64,000 bases of DNA from an uncultured Chloroflexia bacterium (lineage in GTDB: Bacteria; Chloroflexota; Limnocylindria; Limnocylindrales; CSP1-4): the NCBI GenBank assembly GCA_963713975.1, contig OY970218.1, positions 320,001-384,000 of the forward strand. Direction: 5' to 3'. The notes under the pieces were generated by a model. It made no database searches and had not been told where the DNA came from. It saw only the letters and a list, made by a program, of their open reading frames with translations. This document shows positions 37,418 through 43,084 of the stretch, in pieces. The position numbers were made by a program, and so were the translations under genes. The stretch's first letter is position 1, and the number at the start of each line of letters is the position of its first letter.

Positions 37418-37483
37418 CCGCAGGGCAGGCCAGGGACGGTGGATGGATACCGTCCGTCCGCACCGGCCGGTAGACTGCGCGCC

Positions 37484-38341
37484 ATGGCAGACACCCACGC
37501 CCCCGGTCGCGCGAAGACGGGGATCCCCCGCAACCCGGGCCGCCACGAGCTGGGGATGAGGGCGACGCTCCTGTTCCCCGACAAGGAAATCGTGGAGCGC
37601 TTCTACGTGCCGCTGGTCTACACGGCGTGCCGTACCTGCTACTCGGAGCTGGAGCCCCAGGAGATCTTCCGGCGGGCGGTCGAGGGCGAGGTCGCGCCGG
37701 CCTCCATGCAGCGGCTCATTTCGAACGTGATCGAATCCGGCCACGGCTCCACGATCGAGCACATCGTCTTCACCTTCGGCCTCTCGGGCGTGTCACGGAC
37801 GCTGTCCCACCAGCTCGTCCGCCACCGCGCCGGTGTCGCCTTCGACCAGCAGAGCCAGCGCTATGTGAAGTTCAAGGGCGCGGCCACGATGCTGCCGGCG
37901 ACCATCGCGGAGGCCGAGCCCGACCTCCGCGCGCGCTACGAGGACCAGGTCGACGGGGCGCTCGGCCTGTACGCCGAGCTGGTGGAAGCCGGGGTGCCCG
38001 GCGAGGACGCCCGGTTCGTCTTTCCCAACGCGACGCGCACCAACCTCGTCATGACGACGAACCTGCGCGCCCTCATCCACATGTCGGGACTGCGCCTGTG
38101 CACCATGGCCCAGTGGGAGATCCGCCGGCTGTTCCAGCTGATGCGCCACGAGGTCTTTGGCGTGTCGCCGTTCCTGGGCTCGTTCCTGGCGCCCAAGTGC
38201 GTGCCGCTAGGCTACTGCGACGAGTTCAATAACCGCGACGAGCACTGTCCCATCCGGCCGCACAAGGACAACGTCCTGGGTGCCTGGGCGCAGGGACGCG
38301 ACGCCGCCCGCGCGGCGGGGCGCGACCTGCCGGTCACCTGA
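37484..38341 (+). CDS. thyX: FAD-dependent thymidylate synthase ThyX
   Basis: GHGSTIEH, SHQLVRHR...QQSQRY, EDARFVFP, AQWEIR. Confidence 0.95.
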   Translation: MADTHAPGRAKTGIPRNPGRHELGMRATLLFPDKEIVERFYVPLVYTACRTCYSELEPQEIFRRAVEGEVAPASMQRLISNVIESGHGSTIEHIVFTFGLSGVSRTLSHQLVRHRAGVAFDQQSQRYVKFKGAATMLPATIAEAEPDLRARYEDQVDGALGLYAELVEAGVPGEDARFVFPNATRTNLVMTTNLRALIHMSGLRLCTMAQWEIRRLFQLMRHEVFGVSPFLGSFLAPKCVPLGYCDEFNNRDEHCPIRPHKDNVLGAWAQGRDAARAAGRDLPVT

Positions 38342-38649: not shown

Positions 38650-39513
38650 TCAGCTATCGCCGAGCCCGGCGATGAAGCGGCGCAGCACCCTGGCGAGCCG
38701 CGGCCCCGCCTCGGCGCCTGCCTTGAGCACCTCCTCGTGGGTCAGCGGCTGCCCGCTGTAGCCGGCACCCGCGTTGGTCACCAAAGACACGCCACAAACC
38801 TCGAGACCGACCCAGCGTGCCGCAACCGCCTCGAGCACCGTCGACATGCCGACGGCATCGGCGCCCATGGCGTGCAGCATGCGGACCTCGGCCGGCGTCT
38901 CGTAGCTGGGACCCAGCAGCCCCACGTAGACCCCTTCCTCAAGGGGCACACCCTCGGCCACGCCAGCGGCCCTGAGGACTGCCCGGTGGGCAGGGGTCCA
39001 GACATCCGTCATGTCCGCGAACCGTGGTCCGAGCTCGTCCGCGTTCTGGCCAAGCAGCGGCGTCATCCCGGTCAGGTTGATGTGATCCGCGATCACCATC
39101 AGCGTCCCCGGTCCATACGCGGGATTCGCACCGCCCGCTGCGTTGGTCAGGATCACCAGGCTCGCACCCAGCTGCCGGAAGAGCAGCACCGGCTGGACGA
39201 CGAGGCCCGGGGCGTTGCCCTCGTAGAGGTGGAGCCGGCCCTGGAGCGCGGCGACCGGGACACCGGCGAGGCTACCCAGCAGCAGGCGGCCGGCGTGGCC
39301 CGGGGCGGTCGCGACTGGCCACCCGGGAAGGTCCTCGAAGGGGATCGAGACCACGTCCTCGATGTCATCGGCGAGGCTGCCCAGGCCGGAGCCGAGGACG
39401 ATGGCGACACGCGGCACGAGGTCCGTGCGCGAACGCACGGCAGCGACAAGCGCGGCCAATCGGACCGGCTGCTCGGAGGGGGGGATCGGACGGGAGCGGT
39501 CGATGTCTGCCAT
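38650..39513 (-). CDS. punA: Purine-nucleoside phosphorylase (trimeric type)
   Basis: VLGSGLG, GRLHLYEG, TNAAGG, GPSYETPAE, VGMSTVLE, VTN. Confidence 0.95.
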   Translation of the reverse strand: MADIDRSRPIPPSEQPVRLAALVAAVRSRTDLVPRVAIVLGSGLGSLADDIEDVVSIPFEDLPGWPVATAPGHAGRLLLGSLAGVPVAALQGRLHLYEGNAPGLVVQPVLLFRQLGASLVILTNAAGGANPAYGPGTLMVIADHINLTGMTPLLGQNADELGPRFADMTDVWTPAHRAVLRAAGVAEGVPLEEGVYVGLLGPSYETPAEVRMLHAMGADAVGMSTVLEAVAARWVGLEVCGVSLVTNAGAGYSGQPLTHEEVLKAGAEAGPRLARVLRRFIAGLGDS

Positions 39514-39540
39514 GCGAGGAGGATAGGCCGGGCCGACCAC

Positions 39541-39834
39541 GGGGTCTCGCCTGTCGTGCTGGGTGATGGCCGCGGCGGGCCTTAAACTCCGACGCCCGGC
39601 AGGAGTACCGACACCGGGATGCCGGTCGCGTCCTTTCGGGCGCCCAGGCCGACGACCCTCGCGGGCTGTCTGCGCTGGTGAACGAAGTGCCCGAAGCAAC
39701 CGGAGAGCGCCGGACCTTGATGTGATCGCGGTCATGGCGCCGACCTGGCGTCGATGCGATCTCGGCCTGGCCGGGTGGAACGGGCTTGAGGCAATCGCCC
39801 CCGTTCCGGGCCTCCTATCGGCCCCCTCGGGCAC
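39541..39834 (-). ncRNA. Candidate structured non-coding RNA of unknown class (~290 nt)
   Basis: Own promoter; 5' GUGCCCGAGG pairs with CUUCGGGCAC; G-U pairs and GAAA/GCGA tetraloops on the minus strand; H-type pseudoknot. Confidence 0.6.
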
Positions 39835-39839
39835 GACCA

Positions 39840-39868
39840 ACGTTACGACCCGACCGCGCCCAGTCCAA
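39840..39868 (-). promoter_or_regulatory. sigma70-type promoter TTGGAC-N17-TAACGT
   Basis: -35 at 39868-39863, -10 at 39845-39840; predicted +1 near 39834 coincides with the first base of the closing stem. Confidence 0.65.
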
Positions 39869-39873
39869 CGGGG

Positions 39874-39948
39874 TTGTCCACGAACCACCGGCCGGCGGAG
39901 CCGGCTCCGTCCACGACTTTGCCACCGCTGTGGATGGCCTGTGGACGG
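39874..39948. promoter_or_regulatory. Cluster of four DnaA-box-like 9-mers
   Basis: TTGTCCACG (39874), CCGTCCACG (39907), and reverse-oriented TGTGGATGG (39929) and TGTGGACGG (39940), versus consensus TT(G/A)TCCACA. Confidence 0.5.
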
Positions 39949-40028
39949 CAGGCATGGGCCTGCGGGCATACCCGCAACGCTGCGCAAGCGCCCCACGCCA
40001 ACGCTGCACCAGCGCCGCCAGCGAACGA

Positions 40029-41126
40029 TCAGCCACCGAGGGCGAACATCTCCACCTTCGGGAGCCGTTCCGTCGCCGCGCTGCGCAGCTCCGAGTAGCG
40101 GTCAGTCCGGGCGCCCCACGAGGCCCGGATCCGGGCCTCGAGGTCCGAGTCGGTCTCCCCGTTCCGCAGCGGGGCCTTGAGGTCCGTGCCGTCGACGGCG
40201 AACAGGCACGTGTAGAGGTGCCCGTCCGCGGACAGTCGCGCCCGCGTGCAATCACCGCAGAACGGCTTCGTGACCGACGCGATGACGCCGATCTCGCCGG
40301 ACCCGTCGCGGTACCGGTAGCGACCCGCAACCTCGCCCCGGTAGTTGGCGGCGACGGGCTCGAGCGGCAGCTCCCCGTCGACGATGCCGAGGATCTCGTC
40401 CGCCGGCACGACATCGTCAAGGCGCCAGCCGTTCGCAGTCCCGACGTCCATGTACTCGATGAACCGCAGGATCAGCCCCTCGTCGCGAGCCCAGCGGGCG
40501 AGCGGCAGCACCGAATCCTCGTTGATCCCGCGCCGCACGACGGTATTGACCTTGATCGGCGCGAGGCCGGCGGCCCGCGCGGCCGCGATCCCGTCCAGGA
40601 CCCGGGAGACCGGGAACTCCACGCCGTTCAGCGCACCGGACACGGCATCGTCGAGCGAGTCGAGGCTCACCGTGATGCGCGTAAGGCCGGCCTCGCGCAG
40701 CGGCCCCGCGAGCGGTCGCAACGCCGAGCCGTTGGTGGTCAGGGTGAGGTCGACCGCATCACCGGCCGGCGTCCGCAGCCGCGCCAGCTGGCCGACCAGG
40801 AGCGGCAGGTCTCGGCGCAGCAGCGGCTCGCCGCCGGTGATCCGCAGCTTGCCCACCCCGAGGGTCAAGAAGATCGAGGCCAGCCGGCTGATCTCCTCGA
40901 AGGACAGGACCTGGTCGTGGGGCAGGAAGGCGAAGTCACGCCCGAACAGCTCCGCCGGCATGCAGTACGGGCAGCGGAAGTTGCAGCGGTCCGTGACCGA
41001 GATCCGCAGGTCACGGAGGGCCCTGCTGAACCGGTCCGGCAGGCCGGTCGGCTCGTCGAATGCGCCGGTGGCCCCCGGCGCGGCACCCACCTTCGGGGAC
41101 GGATCAGGATTGGTGTCAGGATTCAC
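40029..41126 (-). CDS. moaA: GTP 3',8-cyclase MoaA
   Basis: LRISVTDRCNFRCPYCMP, TGGEPLLR, FCGDCTRARL, C-terminal GG. Confidence 0.96.
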   Translation of the reverse strand: MNPDTNPDPSPKVGAAPGATGAFDEPTGLPDRFSRALRDLRISVTDRCNFRCPYCMPAELFGRDFAFLPHDQVLSFEEISRLASIFLTLGVGKLRITGGEPLLRRDLPLLVGQLARLRTPAGDAVDLTLTTNGSALRPLAGPLREAGLTRITVSLDSLDDAVSGALNGVEFPVSRVLDGIAAARAAGLAPIKVNTVVRRGINEDSVLPLARWARDEGLILRFIEYMDVGTANGWRLDDVVPADEILGIVDGELPLEPVAANYRGEVAGRYRYRDGSGEIGVIASVTKPFCGDCTRARLSADGHLYTCLFAVDGTDLKAPLRNGETDSDLEARIRASWGARTDRYSELRSAATERLPKVEMFALGG

Positions 41127-41359
41127 CCGCCTATGGTAGACCGGGTCGGCGAGCGGGCCCGCGGCCGGCGGGCTCGCGGCGGGCCGGGTCGCGGACGCGG
41201 GCCAAGTCGATCCGACCAGATCACAAATGAGTGGTGCGCCCCGGTACCACCGGGACCACTGGCTGGTACCTCTAGCGAGTGCACCGGAGCCCACTCGGCC
41301 GCCTATGGTGCACGCAGGCCCCGGCCCTGCCTGCCGCTCACGAGGAAGAGAACCCGACC

Positions 41360-43084
41360 ATGGCGACCACCGACACGCGCTCCGGTTTCCGGCTCCCCTG
41401 GAGCTCCGATCGCGCCATCGATGCCGACGAGCATGCGCCTTCCGATGTCGCAGCCGAGACCGACGACGATGCGCCTTCCGATTCGGCCGCGTCAGAAGGC
41501 AGCGACCCCAATGCCAGCGCCGAGCCCGGCGCCCAGCCCCCCGAACCCGCCGCCGCGGGGCCGACCGGACCCCAGGAGCCCGCCATGATCGATCTGTATC
41601 CCACGGCCCCCCAGGTCCAGCAGGCGCCGAGAAAGCCATCCAAGCTCATGGCCGAGCTGACGACGGCGATCCGGGGCACCGCGGAAGCGGCCAGCGAGCA
41701 CGCCCTGACCCAGGTGGACACGGACCTCGCCCAGGTGGTCGAGACGATCCGGAACCTCGCCAAGGACGGCGAGGCCTCGCTGCGCGTCCGGTCTGACGAG
41801 GACACCGCCGCGATCAAGGAGTGGTCGCGCCTGGAGATCCAGCGGATCAAGCAGGAGACGGAGGCGAAGATCGACGCCCGCAAGGCGGCCCTCGACGGTG
41901 AGCTCGCGGCCCATGCGACTGCCATCGAGCAGCGTGTCGGCGATGTCAGCATCTCGGCCGATGCCTTCAGGTCGGAGATGGCCGCCTACGCTGAGCGCAT
42001 GGGGCAGGAGGAGGATCCCTCCCGTCTGGCCACCATGGCCGAGTCGATGCCCGAGGCCCCCCAGCTGGATGCCTGGGCGGATTTCGATGCCTTCCCGCTC
42101 GACCTCCCCGCCGCCGCGCTCGCCGTGGCGGCACAGACGGAGCGAGAGGCCGCTCTCGAGGCCGAGGCCCAGGCGGCGCTGCAGGCGGAGGCCGATGCGG
42201 CCCTGCAGGCGGAGGCCGATGCGGCCCTGCGCGCGGAGGCCAACGCGGCGTGGCAGGCACAGGCCGACGCGGCCGCGGACGAGGACGGCGCCGAGGAGCC
42301 GGAAACGGAAGCCGACTCGCAGGCCCGCGCCGACATGATGCTGGAGCCCGACCATACGGCTGAGGCGGTGACCGTGGACCAGGTCGAGGTCGAGGCCGAG
42401 CCAATCGTGGCCGAGGTCGAGGTCGAGGCCGAGCCAATCGTGGCCGAGGTCGAGGTCGAGGCCGAGCCAATCGTGGCCGAGGTCGAGGCCCAGGCCGAGC
42501 CAATCGTGGCCGAGGTCGAGGCCAGCCCCCCGCAGGCCACGAGGACCACGAACCCGTGGGGCGACGCGGAATCCGGCTGGGGCAGCGGCGCCACCAAGGC
42601 TGTTGCCAGCGCCATTCCCGCGTCAGATGACGCAGCCCGGGCCGCAGAAGCCCAGGCGGAGCTCGAGACAGGCCTCCTGGAGGCAGACGACAGCGTTGAG
42701 CCCGAGGCCGATGCCGCGCTGTCGGCCCGGCTGAGCGCCATGGGGTTCGATGCTGCCTACGCGGACGCGACGGCCTCCCTCGCGCTGGACGCCAACGGCG
42801 TCGCTGCAGGGACCGAGATGCTCGTGACCCAGGTCGTGGTCTCGGGGCTCGTCTCCGTCGCCAGCATCGCCAGCTTCAAGCGCCATCTCGGCCGCATCGG
42901 GGGAGTGCAGGCGGTCGCCGTTGCGTCCGGACCGAACGGAGAGTTCGTGTTCAACGTGACGCATGCGCCGAACGTCTCGTTCCGCGAGGCGCTCCCGACC
43001 CTGCCCGGGTTCGCGGCCCGGGTGACGAGCACCGGGAACGGCGTGGTCCAGGTCACTGCCCGAGATCCAGAGTCCGAGGCCTGA
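41360..43084 (+). CDS. Acidic coiled-coil hypothetical protein with internal repeats and a small C-terminal alpha/beta domain
   Basis: GAGGAAG RBS; long Ala/Glu heptad region; C-terminal VVVSGLVSVASIASFKRHLGRIGGVQAV. Confidence 0.8.
   Translation: MATTDTRSGFRLPWSSDRAIDADEHAPSDVAAETDDDAPSDSAASEGSDPNASAEPGAQPPEPAAAGPTGPQEPAMIDLYPTAPQVQQAPRKPSKLMAELTTAIRGTAEAASEHALTQVDTDLAQVVETIRNLAKDGEASLRVRSDEDTAAIKEWSRLEIQRIKQETEAKIDARKAALDGELAAHATAIEQRVGDVSISADAFRSEMAAYAERMGQEEDPSRLATMAESMPEAPQLDAWADFDAFPLDLPAAALAVAAQTEREAALEAEAQAALQAEADAALQAEADAALRAEANAAWQAQADAAADEDGAEEPETEADSQARADMMLEPDHTAEAVTVDQVEVEAEPIVAEVEVEAEPIVAEVEVEAEPIVAEVEAQAEPIVAEVEASPPQATRTTNPWGDAESGWGSGATKAVASAIPASDDAARAAEAQAELETGLLEADDSVEPEADAALSARLSAMGFDAAYADATASLALDANGVAAGTEMLVTQVVVSGLVSVASIASFKRHLGRIGGVQAVAVASGPNGEFVFNVTHAPNVSFREALPTLPGFAARVTSTGNGVVQVTARDPESEA
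42381..42523 (+). repeat. 33-bp coding tandem repeat x4 (EVEAEPIVAEV)
   Basis: AGGTCGAGGTCGAGGCCGAGCCAATCGTGGCCG three exact copies, a fourth with 2 changes, then a partial copy; a separate 24-bp ALQAEADA repeat lies at about 42175-42250. Confidence 0.9.

What the first reader, a model, noticed from the sequence alone, without database searches (positions are those of the whole stretch)
39541..39868. Unannotated ~290-nt structured RNA with its own promoter, GNRA loops, a pseudoknot and alternative pairings, between moaA and punA
Seen on the minus strand: a TTGGAC-N17-TAACGT promoter puts +1 near 39834, exactly where GUGCCCGAGG begins a 10-bp helix with CUUCGGGCAC (39696-39687). The helix continues through GGCCG/CGGUU, GGAG/CUCU and CCGGA/UCCGG and encloses a ~148-nt domain with two inner hairpins (ACGGG/CCCGU, GAUCGC/GCGAUC) and unpaired C/A-rich linkers. 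A second domain follows: GCCC-GCGA-GGGU and CC-GAAA-GG tetraloop hairpins, an ACCGGCAU/GUGUCGGU stem, an H-type pseudoknot (ACUCC/GGAGU stem whose loop CGGGC pairs with downstream GCCCG, 39576-39606), and long-range CUGGG/CCCAG and GUCGU/ACGAC helices. G-U wobbles and GNRA loops work only on the minus strand. A competing helix CCAGGCCGA/UCGGCCUGG links the two domains, suggesting a switch. I could not match it to tmRNA, RNase P, SRP, T-box or common riboswitch cores. Inference: a new RNA motif. Options are a 6S/Ms1-like RNAP-binding RNA, a ribozyme-like RNA, or a cis-regulator of punA. punA has its own leaderless -10 (39525-39520), which favours an independent RNA.
Basis: partly seen in the sequence, partly recalled or inferred. 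Interest (0 to 1): 0.85.

Follow-up and report, generated by a model that had tools for sequence, protein, structure and literature searches.

The report
New structured RNA upstream of punA
A real, conserved, roughly 250-base folded non-coding RNA that is in no RNA catalogue sits in front of a purine-salvage gene in soil Chloroflexota, and its promoter is flanked by sites that look like binding sites for the replication initiator DnaA.

Summary
The core of the finding holds. Window 39834-39586 (minus strand) encodes a conserved structured RNA with no Rfam match. Its promoter, TTGGAC-N17-TAACGT, is conserved. In 20 genus copies, 71 base pairs are 97% kept and 18 show compensatory changes; slid controls give 48% or less.

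The organism is a Limnocylindria (Chloroflexota), not an actinobacterium.

The RNA has two parts:
- **Domain 1:** a 5' stem enclosing three hairpins, each with the same 13-nt loop (GAUCAC-type). Relatives carry 1 to 5 such hairpins.
- **Domain 2:** a 3' domain with an invariant hairpin.

Domain 1 belongs to a class-wide family of stand-alone 70-180-nt RNAs, with about four copies in this genome. DnaA-box-like clusters sit upstream, most clearly at the punA copy. Box 4 is also found at the putative oriC.

punA follows the RNA in 112 of 118 loci. In 54 of 105 distinct loci the RNA runs into a hairpin that hides the ribosome-binding site. In 42, including this window, punA has its own leaderless-type -10.

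Function is inferred only: a DnaA-linked regulatory RNA that presents repeated loops to an unknown partner.

The parts
39929..39946 (-). DnaA-box-like sites 1 and 2 (GTCCACA at 39946-39940, ATCCACA at 39935-39929), direct repeats 11 nt apart
   Evidence: Sequence read. Conserved across the genus and family. One of 9 genome-wide clusters with at least 4 box cores in 150 nt.
39907..39914 (-). DnaA-box-like site 3 (GTGGACGG, opposite orientation)
39873..39881 (-). DnaA-box-like site 4 (GTGGACAAC; reverse complement GTTGTCCAC), 4 nt upstream of the -35
   Evidence: In relatives it varies as TTGTCCAC, TTTTCCAC or TTATCCAC. The identical CGTGGACAACC occurs in the dnaA-dnaN intergenic region of the same genome.
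39863..39868 (-). -35 hexamer TTGGAC
   Evidence: Conserved as TTGGA or TTGAC while the 17-nt spacer varies in sequence. The promoter pattern is found in 106 of 117 loci.
39840..39845 (-). -10 hexamer TAACGT (TAnnnT type)
   Evidence: Not found by the strict sigma-70 scan.
39586..39834 (-). The RNA as inferred, about 249 nt: 5' end inferred 6-7 nt after the -10, 3' end at the end of helix P2
   Evidence: Covariance model R1 matches G000 359580-359836 at 244.9 bits. The 3' end is inferred from a poly(A) loose end right after ...GAAGU in an RNA-library contig of a relative. The 5' end is inferred, not mapped.
39689..39832 (-). Domain 1: P1 (39832-39825 with 39696-39689), P1a and P1b, closing a multiloop with three hairpins H1-H3
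   Evidence: helix 1 has 4 pairs with compensatory change, H1 has 2, H2 has 4, H3 has 2.
39786..39798 (-). Loop of hairpin H1 (GCGAUUGCCUCAA)
   Evidence: Repeated loop motif GAU[C/U][A/G]C[A/C]UC[A/G]A.
39751..39763 (-). Loop of hairpin H2 (GAGAUCGCAUCGA)
39717..39729 (-). Loop of hairpin H3 (GCGAUCACAUCAA)
   Evidence: This is the form found in nearly all single-hairpin relatives.
39586..39688 (-). Domain 2: P2 (39688-39684 with 39590-39586) enclosing H4 and the long P3-H5 hairpin. Found only in the punA-linked copy.
   Evidence: Almost always one copy per genome.
39652..39667 (-). H4, a variable hairpin with a GNRA loop (GCGA)
   Evidence: 2 pairs with compensatory change. Its length varies in the family.
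39591..39645 (-). P3-H5 hairpin. The core GGCAUCCCGGUGUC (39623-39610) is invariant.
   Evidence: 20 pairs, 13 with compensatory change, over 111 distinct sequences. The G.U and U.G pairs of the tip never vary.
39526..39585 (-). Unconserved spacer. It begins with UUUAAGG, which is kept in most copies of this genus.
   Evidence: sequence and length (11-275 nt) vary between relatives.
39520..39525 (-). -10-like TATCCT, 6 nt before the punA ATG (leaderless-type promoter)
   Evidence: TAnnnT lies 5-8 nt before an in-frame start in 42 of 105 distinct loci.
38650..39513 (-). punA (purine nucleoside phosphorylase), 287 aa

Best explanation
**What is shown**
- This is a genuine non-coding RNA gene.
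- A TTGGAC-N17-TAACGT promoter, preceded by four DnaA-box-like sites, gives a folded RNA of about 250 nt.
- Domain 1 is a member of a Limnocylindria-wide family of small hairpin RNAs. They share a 5'/3' closing stem and carry 1 to 5 hairpins with one near-invariant 13-nt loop.
- Domain 2 is a second fold, about 100 nt long, found only in the copy in front of punA.

**What is inferred**
- In this genome the RNA is a discrete, stable transcript that ends after helix P2. punA is made mainly from its own leaderless promoter 66 nt further on.
- The RNA works by offering its repeated loops and the invariant H5 hairpin to a trans-acting partner. That partner is most likely a protein that it binds in several copies.
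- The amount of RNA made is set by DnaA.
- In many relatives the same RNA is also the punA leader and gates punA translation through a hairpin that hides the Shine-Dalgarno sequence.
For: **Structure**
- 71 pairs are 97.3% kept and 18 carry double changes. Slid and shuffle controls are far lower.
- Domain 2 has 13 of 20 pairs with double changes over 111 distinct sequences.

**Not coding**
- Indels of 1-2 nt occur inside the RNA.
- The frame upstream of punA is closed just before the start in many relatives (open frames of 288-290 aa).

**Distribution**
- 22 of 24 genus genomes by BLAST.
- 108 of 151 family genomes and 37 of 49 genera by model R1, almost always one copy per genome (the count includes unpublished G121).
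- 80 of 80 pattern-found loci.

**Repeated loop**
- Among 111 distinct RNAs, 64 have 1 hairpin, 4 have 2, 38 have 3 and 5 have 5.

**Family of stand-alone copies**
- Model R2 hits 94 of 151 class genomes: f1 41/44, f4 45/50, f3 7/49 (includes unpublished G266, G274, G255, G249).
- It hits 0 of 136 genomes of other Chloroflexota families.
- The copies have U-rich tails and no shared downstream gene.
- Four copies lie in this genome.

**DnaA-box-like sites**
- 87 of 109 distinct upstream regions hold 3 or more cores. In control windows 104 of 111 hold none.
- The putative oriC beside dnaA holds five box-like sites, one of them identical to box 4.

**Discrete, expressed RNA**
- Short RNA-library contigs of relatives cover 39582-39799 with word depths of up to several hundred.
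- One of them ends in a poly(A) run right after P2.

**Independence from punA**
- L009 and L084 keep the RNA without punA downstream.

**Cis link to punA**
- punA lies downstream on the same strand within 400 nt in 112 of 118 loci.
- A Shine-Dalgarno motif precedes the punA start in 54 of 105 distinct loci, and in many of them it sits in a hairpin that hides it.
Against: - No partner is known, and nothing here shows binding.
- The 5' end is not mapped. The 3' end rests on one contig of a relative in one run, and the library method (natural or added A-tail) is unknown.
- There is no canonical terminator after the RNA.
- The near-absolute linkage to punA and the Shine-Dalgarno hairpin in about half of the loci fit a plain cis-regulatory leader equally well.
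- In genera g16, g47 and g43 Domain 1 sits 28-90 nt before punA with no room for another promoter.
- The stand-alone copies have fewer strict box cores: 0-2 in 29 of 31.
- That the boxes bind DnaA is inferred from sequence only.
- Contig depths sum over many organisms and paralogues, so they are a poor measure of abundance.
- The tie between many hairpins and the leaderless type (30 of 36 RNAs with more than one hairpin are type A) is confounded by shared ancestry.
Confidence: 0.45

Rival explanations
1. Pure cis-regulatory leader. The whole RNA is the 5' untranslated region of punA. It is a riboswitch or a protein-binding attenuator that senses a purine-related signal in Domain 2 and switches punA translation or read-through. 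It has no role of its own.
For: - punA lies directly downstream in 112 of 118 loci.
- A Shine-Dalgarno motif precedes the punA start in 54 of 105 distinct loci. In many of them a hairpin that hides it (GCGGGCCUC...GAGGCCCGC-AUG) starts 0-3 nt after helix P2, as in known translational riboswitches.
- Domain 2 occurs only at punA, one copy per genome.
- In g16, g47 and g43 Domain 1 is 28-90 nt from the punA start.
Against: - In this window and 41 other distinct loci the Shine-Dalgarno hairpin is replaced by a leaderless-type -10, yet the RNA is fully kept and often enlarged to 3 or 5 hairpins.
- L009 and L084 keep an intact RNA with no punA behind it.
- Domain 1 has stand-alone paralogues with no shared downstream gene.
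- A variable number of identical loops is unusual for a metabolite aptamer.
- A single gene context gives no clue to a ligand.
Confidence: 0.3
2. A 6S- or Ms1-like RNA that binds RNA polymerase.
For: - The size (about 250 nt), the single copy of the full form and the high word depth in RNA libraries resemble housekeeping RNAs.
Against: - No hit to any Rfam model, even at E up to 10. I did not check which 6S or Ms1 models the library holds.
- The fold is branched, with the 5' end paired to the middle. It is not a 5'/3'-closed rod with a central bubble.
- Length and hairpin number vary from 1 to 5 between relatives.
- Some genera lack Domain 2 altogether.
Confidence: 0.04
3. The conserved feature is DNA, not RNA: a chromosomal DnaA-binding locus (datA- or DARS-like). 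On this reading the downstream conservation serves a DNA-level function.
For: - Four conserved DnaA-box-like sites in both orientations.
- Apart from oriC, the intergenic clusters of at least 4 boxes in this genome lie at these RNA loci.
Against: - Compensatory base-pair changes, G.U pairs that work on one strand only, and a conserved promoter with a variable spacer all point to a transcribed, folded RNA.
- RNA-library contigs of relatives cover it.
Confidence: 0.04
4. Chance pairing in G+C-rich intergenic DNA, or translated sequence (an N-terminal extension of PunA or a small ORF).
For: - The punA frame is open up to 39996 in this window.
- The single-sequence fold is only modestly better than shuffles (z -2.09).
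Against: - 72-82% nucleotide identity across the genus, limited to 39947-39579.
- Covariation controls.
- Indels of 1-2 nt.
- The upstream frame is closed in many relatives (open frames of 288-290 aa).
Confidence: 0.01

Closest known systems
CsrB/RsmZ-type protein-sequestering small RNAs (recalled from general knowledge, not tested here)
   Same: - Several hairpins present the same short loop motif.
- The number of hairpins varies between relatives (1-5 here).
- Paralogous copies occur in one genome.
   Different: - The loop motif is a 13-nt GAUCAC-type sequence, not GGA.
- No partner protein is known.
- There is an extra invariant 3' domain.
- The RNA is physically tied to punA.
- There is no sequence or model similarity.
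Translational riboswitch leaders, such as purine-family riboswitches in front of nucleoside and purine genes
   Same: - It sits in front of a purine-salvage gene.
- It has a closing helix (P2).
- In 54 of 105 distinct related loci a Shine-Dalgarno motif precedes the punA start, and in many of them a hairpin that hides it follows P2 directly.
- It has a conserved core with covariation.
   Different: - No match to any Rfam riboswitch model.
- It is much larger.
- It has a variable number of repeated hairpins.
- In this window no expression platform is left.
- The RNA is kept where punA is lost.
Riboswitch-bearing small RNAs that also act in trans (EutX/Rli55, SreA; a SAM-I riboswitch/sRNA is named in the search listing, seen as abstract only)
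   Same: One transcript combines a possible sensor domain with hairpins that could bind a factor. It would therefore have both a cis and a trans role.
   Different: Neither a ligand nor a partner is known here. The comparison is by analogy only.
Orphan structured bacterial RNAs found by comparative genomics (raiA motif, OLE, ROOL, GOLLD; all recalled)
   Same: - Large size.
- Strong covariation.
- Lineage-restricted.
- Unknown function.
- High apparent expression.
   Different: - No model match in the Rfam 15 scan; I did not check which of these families that library holds.
- This RNA has a DnaA-box-flanked promoter and a modular, repeated loop.
DnaA-controlled promoters (dnaA and nrdAB in E. 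coli; recalled)
   Same: A cluster of TTATCCACA-like 9-mers lies next to the -35. One box (box 4) is identical to a box in the putative oriC of this genome.
   Different: The product here is a family of structured RNAs, not a protein. I found no description of this in the two literature searches I ran.

Membership tests
Any Rfam 15 family | Covariance-model score at or above the curated gathering score | tested here: not met
   - 0 matches in the whole window.
- At E up to 10 on 39400-40100 there are only three hits: mir-1203 at 19.9, GRIK4 at 17.3 and Twister-sister at 15.2 bits.
- The stand-alone copies also have none.
6S / Ms1 RNA | Rod-like fold closed by the 5' and 3' ends, with a large central bubble | tested here: not met
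   The consensus fold is two branched domains, and the 5' end pairs with positions about 140 nt downstream.
6S / Ms1 RNA | Binding to RNA polymerase | not testable with these tools
   No assay is available here.
Riboswitch (metabolite-sensing leader) | Constant position in the 5' leader of the controlled gene | tested here: met
   punA lies downstream on the same strand within 400 nt in 112 of 118 loci.
Riboswitch (metabolite-sensing leader) | An expression platform (terminator or Shine-Dalgarno-hiding helix) overlapping the aptamer's closing helix | tested here: inconclusive
   - A Shine-Dalgarno motif precedes the punA start in 54 of 105 distinct related loci, in many of them inside a hairpin that hides it.
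- It is absent in this window, where a leaderless-type -10 stands instead.
- No terminator is found.
Riboswitch (metabolite-sensing leader) | Specific binding of a small ligand | not testable with these tools
   This needs in-line probing or ITC.
Protein-sequestering sRNA (CsrB-like kind) | Multiple hairpins showing one conserved loop motif, with the number varying among relatives | tested here: met
   There are three loops in the window. Among 111 distinct RNAs the counts are 1 hairpin (64), 2 (4), 3 (38) and 5 (5).
Protein-sequestering sRNA (CsrB-like kind) | A known partner protein that binds the motif | not tested
   No candidate was identified. The loop shares GAUCAC with the 16S 3' tail, but that is only a lead.
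DnaA-regulated promoter | Cluster of 9-mers close to TTATCCACA or TTGTCCACA | tested here: met
   - Four sites lie at 39873-39946.
- 87 of 109 distinct upstream regions hold 3 or more cores, while 104 of 111 control windows hold none.
DnaA-regulated promoter | Same box type at the organism's own origin | tested here: met
   The dnaA-dnaN intergenic region, which is near the GC-skew minimum, has five box-like sites. One of them is CGTGGACAACC, identical to box 4. An A+T-rich stretch follows.
DnaA-regulated promoter | DnaA binding and an effect on transcription | not testable with these tools
   This needs EMSA or footprinting and reporter assays.
Y RNA | A Ro (TROVE) protein in the genome and a Ro-binding stem | tested here: not met
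   No TROVE match in the window's genome, while the controls give hits. No hit to any Rfam model.
tRNA / tmRNA-like | Recognised by ARAGORN | tested here: not met
   0 genes in 39300-40100 and in six loci holding stand-alone copies.

The most novel reading that the evidence does not exclude
The Limnocylindria hairpin RNAs, with this RNA as their largest member, could form a DnaA-controlled set of decoy RNAs. Their invariant loops begin with GAUCAC, the same letters as the 3' tail of 16S rRNA (GAUCACCUCC). That tail is the segment the ribosome-assembly GTPase Era contacts, according to a passage in PMC6738653. The 16S rRNA of this genome ends ...GGAUCACCUCCUUUCU. On this reading the replication initiator would set the level of an RNA that ties up a 30S-maturation factor in 1 to 5 copies per molecule, linking chromosome replication to ribosome production. 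Even without the Era part, a DnaA regulon made of structured RNAs would be new.
Probability: 0.06. Interest if true: 0.9.

Novelty: new variant of a known kind. Interest (0 to 1): 0.62.

Why it matters
Limnocylindria are abundant soil and freshwater Chloroflexota, known here only from metagenome-assembled genomes (record titles). This RNA is a large, well-supported structured RNA class that is specific to them, and I found no match for it in Rfam 15.

It combines three features that are each rare:
- a modular fold with 1 to 5 copies of one invariant loop;
- a promoter flanked by sites like those at the origin of replication;
- a position that switches between 'leader of punA' and 'separate gene' within a single family.

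It gives a concrete, testable case of how a leader RNA and a stand-alone small RNA can turn into one another. It may also be a first handle on DnaA-dependent RNA regulation.

Tried and rejected
**Known RNA families**
- Rfam at gathering score and at relaxed thresholds gave nothing.
- The strict promoter and terminator scan gave nothing.
- tRNA/tmRNA: none found.
- Y RNA: I considered it because the 5' end (GCCCGAAGG) recalls the start of vertebrate Y RNAs, which I recalled from memory. There is no TROVE protein and no model hit.

**Base-pairing targets for the loop**
- In the window's own genome, the only near-perfect complements of the loop are the RNAs' own opposite strands, the punA DHIN site and three unexamined single sites.
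- The rRNA operon has no more 7-mer complements than shuffles do: 1 observed against a shuffled mean of 2.4.

**The loop as a copy of the punA codons D-H-I-N**
- The window's coding sequence holds GATCACATCAA. Across relatives, however, the Asp codon is GAC in 83 of 108 sequences, so there is no selection for the loop's letters. I left this as a curiosity.

**Covariation between the 5' strand of the helix after P2 and the Shine-Dalgarno-hairpin strand**
- I looked for this by eye as a possible anti-sequestor. It was not convincing.

**Sequencing runs**
- Only small-share holders, that is relatives, were found.
- In the laid runs no contig lay on 39400-39567 (the start of punA) or on 39820-40000. 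These are contigs of relatives laid at 80% likeness, so this says nothing about read-through or about the 5' end.
- A permuted contig in X22/X24, which look like one data set filed twice, joins 39767 to 39601. It is unexplained and may be an assembly artefact.

**Literature and earlier notes**
- Four searches gave no description of this RNA. I saw only listings and abstracts, plus one passage of PMC6738653.
- PMC3121871 is not held.
- The search of earlier findings by place and by sequence gave nothing.

- Two scripts failed on my own regular expressions and were corrected.
Full report
**Locus**

On the minus strand, moaA ends at 40029 and punA starts at ATG 39513. The 515-nt gap between them holds the feature. 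Rfam 15 gives no match at gathering score anywhere in the 64-kb window. At E up to 10 on 39400-40100 it gives only three chance-level hits. The single-sequence fold is modestly better than shuffles on the minus strand (z -2.09, 3 of 100 shuffles as good). On the plus strand it is not (z -0.76). The strict promoter and terminator scan finds nothing.

**Conservation**

BLAST of the gap against relatives finds a sharply bounded block, window 39947-39579. It is 72-82% identical in 22 of 24 genomes of the same genus. It is absent in 16 of 16 genomes of a small-genome sister family and occurs once in the window's own genome.

The alignment shows five successive zones:
- four box motifs (TCCACA twice, then GTGGA twice);
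- a conserved -35 TTGGA and -10 TAnnGT, with a spacer of fixed length but free sequence;
- a block of about 255 nt with indels of 1-2 nt;
- an abrupt loss of conservation after GAAGUUUAA;
- a conserved TAnnnT six to seven bases before the punA ATG.

In about six genomes another 1-1.4 kb lies between moaA and the block. The block therefore travels with punA, not with moaA.

**Structure**

RNAalifold on 20 genus copies predicts 71 pairs, 18 of them with compensatory double changes.

| Measure | Predicted structure | 3' partners slid by 1-3 columns |
|---|---|---|
| Cells paired | 97.3% | 34-48% |
| Pairs with double changes | 18 | 1-6 |

No shuffle out of 500 reaches the observed values on four of the five measures, and 1 of 500 does on the fifth.

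- **Domain 1 (39832-39689).** A closing stem P1, with P1a and P1b, surrounds three hairpins.
- **Domain 2 (39688-39586).** Helix P2 encloses a variable GNRA hairpin (H4) and a long P3-H5 hairpin.

Over 111 distinct family sequences aligned without a structure model, 13 of the 20 P3-H5 pairs show double changes. Examples are GC 41 / AU 37 / GU 23 at one pair and CG 61 / UA 45 at another. The tip, GGCAU-CCCG-GUGUC, never varies, including its G.U and U.G pairs.

- ACUCC/GGAGU: one pair is kept in only 3 of 20 sequences.
- The 'switch' helix: 64% paired, no better than shuffles.
- CCGGA/UCCGG: 70% paired.
- The helices at 39541-39580 lie in unconserved DNA.

**Organism and spread**

The record titles of the 80 loci returned are Chloroflexota MAGs, mostly named Candidatus Limnocylindrales, Limnocylindria or uncultured Chloroflexia. 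Four titles name other phyla and may be mis-binned. All 80 loci hold the full RNA.

Model R1 finds it in 108 of 151 family genomes and 37 of 49 genera, almost always as one copy. That tally includes one unpublished genome, G121; no other claim rests on it.

**Modularity**

All three hairpins of Domain 1 end in the same loop, GAU[C/U][A/G]C[A/C]UC[A/G]A. Among 111 distinct RNAs, 64 have one such hairpin (length about 190 nt), 4 have two, 38 have three and 5 have five (length about 345 nt).

**Link to punA**

punA lies on the same strand within 400 nt in 112 of 118 loci. Three of the other six loci simply run out of DNA.

Among 105 distinct loci:

| Class | Loci | Feature |
|---|---|---|
| Type B | 54 | A Shine-Dalgarno motif before the punA start. 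In many of these loci P2 is followed directly by GCGGGCCUC ... GGAGGCCCGC-AUG, a hairpin that buries it. |
| Type A | 42 | A TAnnnT box 5-8 nt before the start codon (leaderless type). This window is of this class. |
| Unclassified | 9 | — |

Two loci, L009 (of the window's genus) and L084, keep an intact RNA followed by a convergent gene and thyX, with no punA. No close punA was found elsewhere in the L009 genome, which is 86% complete. The L084 genome has only a 48%-identical paralogue elsewhere.

punA itself is present in 137 of 151 family genomes. In genera where R1 found nothing I fetched the punA upstream regions:
- g16, g47, g43 and g15 keep the boxes, the promoter and Domain 1. g16, g47 and g43 have a single hairpin; g15 has extra hairpins. 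All lack Domain 2. In g16, g47 and g43 punA starts 28-90 nt after P1.
- g13 and g9 have neither the RNA nor the boxes.

**A wider family**

A model of Domain 1 alone (R2) hits 94 of 151 genomes of the class: f1 41/44, f4 45/50, f3 7/49, f2 0/6. This tally includes four unpublished genomes, G266, G274, G255 and G249, from which I fetched nothing. R2 hits 0 of 136 genomes of other Chloroflexota families.

Most genomes have 2-4 hits. The extra hits are stand-alone 70-90-nt hairpin RNAs with these features:
- the same closing stem;
- mostly the same loop;
- a U-rich tail;
- the same promoter layout;
- no common downstream gene.

The window's genome has four members, at about 359.7 kb (this RNA), 1,770.4 kb, 2,498.9 kb and 3,040.3 kb. 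The last two carry other inner hairpins. I take this as agreement, not as evidence.

**The boxes**

In relatives, box 4 reads on the opposite strand as TTGTCCAC, TTTTCCAC or TTATCCAC. These are variants of the DnaA-box consensus, which I recall from memory.

In this genome dnaA lies at 1,071,494-1,073,210 and the GC-skew minimum at 1,079,330. The dnaA-dnaN gap holds five box-like sites, including CGTGGACAACC, which is identical to box 4. An A+T-rich stretch follows.

Genome-wide, only nine 150-nt windows hold four or more box cores. They are oriC, this promoter, the 2,498.9-kb RNA promoter, and six that lie in or next to open reading frames.

Box cores in the 140 nt upstream of the punA-linked RNA, counted over 109 distinct regions:

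| Cores | 1 | 2 | 3 | 4 | 5 |
|---|---|---|---|---|---|
| Regions | 4 | 18 | 43 | 43 | 1 |

Of 111 control windows, 104 hold none. The stand-alone copies have fewer strict cores: 0-2 in 29 of 31. DnaA binding itself is inferred, not shown.

**Expression**

No public run holds this strain. Small-share holders, that is relatives, include six RNA libraries. I laid four of them at 80% likeness; X22 and X24 look like one data set filed twice. Short contigs of 39-271 nt cover 39582-39799, with summed word depths of up to several hundred. One contig in X23 runs from Domain 2 into ...CGACGAAGU and then at least 21 A, which is exactly the end of P2. This is a weak hint of a discrete 3' end. The contig comes from a relative, and the library chemistry is unknown.

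**Reading**

- **Shown:** a conserved, folded, modular RNA with its own promoter, and its family relations and contexts.
- **Inferred:**
  - control by DnaA;
  - a discrete transcript in this genus;
  - a partner that reads the repeated loops and the invariant hairpin;
  - control of punA translation through the Shine-Dalgarno hairpin in type-B relatives.

The pure-leader rival remains strong, at 0.3. I prefer the dual reading for four reasons:
- The RNA persists, and is enlarged, where punA has its own leaderless start.
- It persists where punA is lost.
- Its 5' domain has free-standing paralogues.
- A variable number of identical loops is the mark of multivalent binding rather than of a metabolite pocket.

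**Literature**

Searches for punA with riboswitch, for Limnocylindria with RNA terms, and for DnaA box with small RNA returned nothing about such an RNA (listings and abstracts only).

Noticed in passing
Outside the window: G000 1,770,373-1,770,453 (-), 2,498,780-2,498,958 (-), 3,040,223-3,040,348 (+): Three more RNAs with the same closing stem (GCCCGAAGGGGC... / ...GGUUCCUUCGGGC) and U-rich tail, each behind a promoter with DnaA-box-like sites. The third carries two hairpins with a different repeated loop (A/G-GUGCUUGCAC).
   Followed up: partly
Outside the window: G000 1,073,211-1,073,734: The dnaA-dnaN intergenic region has five DnaA-box-like sites and an A+T-rich stretch, near the GC-skew minimum (1,079,330). 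It is the putative oriC.
   Followed up: partly
window 39077-39087 (-), inside punA: The codons for the conserved D-H-I-N motif spell GATCACATCAA, identical to the H3 loop. Across relatives the coding sequence reads GA[C/T]CAC[A/C]TCAAC, with the same A/C variable position as the loops. GAC predominates, so this looks like coincidence.
   Followed up: yes
window 37439-38341 (+): An ORF convergent with punA has the RHR...SQRY signature of flavin-dependent thymidylate synthase (ThyX). The name is recalled from the motif and was not searched. It stays next to the RNA in L009 and L084, where punA is lost.
   Followed up: no
window 41279-43084 (+): A 601-aa ORF with an acidic, Ala/Glu-rich tandem repeat (EAEPIVAEVEV, repeated several times) upstream of moaA.
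   Followed up: no
window 40029-41639 (-): The moaA reading frame is open for about 190 aa upstream of the radical-SAM core, through Arg/Pro-rich sequence. The true start is probably much further downstream.
   Followed up: no
L185 (G094:C45), upstream of punA: In genus g13, which lacks the RNA, the punA upstream region holds about eight tandem copies of a 14-nt unit (GGCGATCGGGCAGC).
   Followed up: no
G067:C1:1492817-1493434 and G089:C123:86390-87235: The punA matches in these two relatives each contain one in-frame TGA. This could be a frameshift, a sequencing error or a broken gene.
   Followed up: no
Runs X22/X24 laid on window 39601-39767: One 219-nt RNA-library contig joins the 3' part of Domain 2 to the H1 loop region in permuted order. 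It may be an assembly artefact or a rearranged relative.
   Followed up: no
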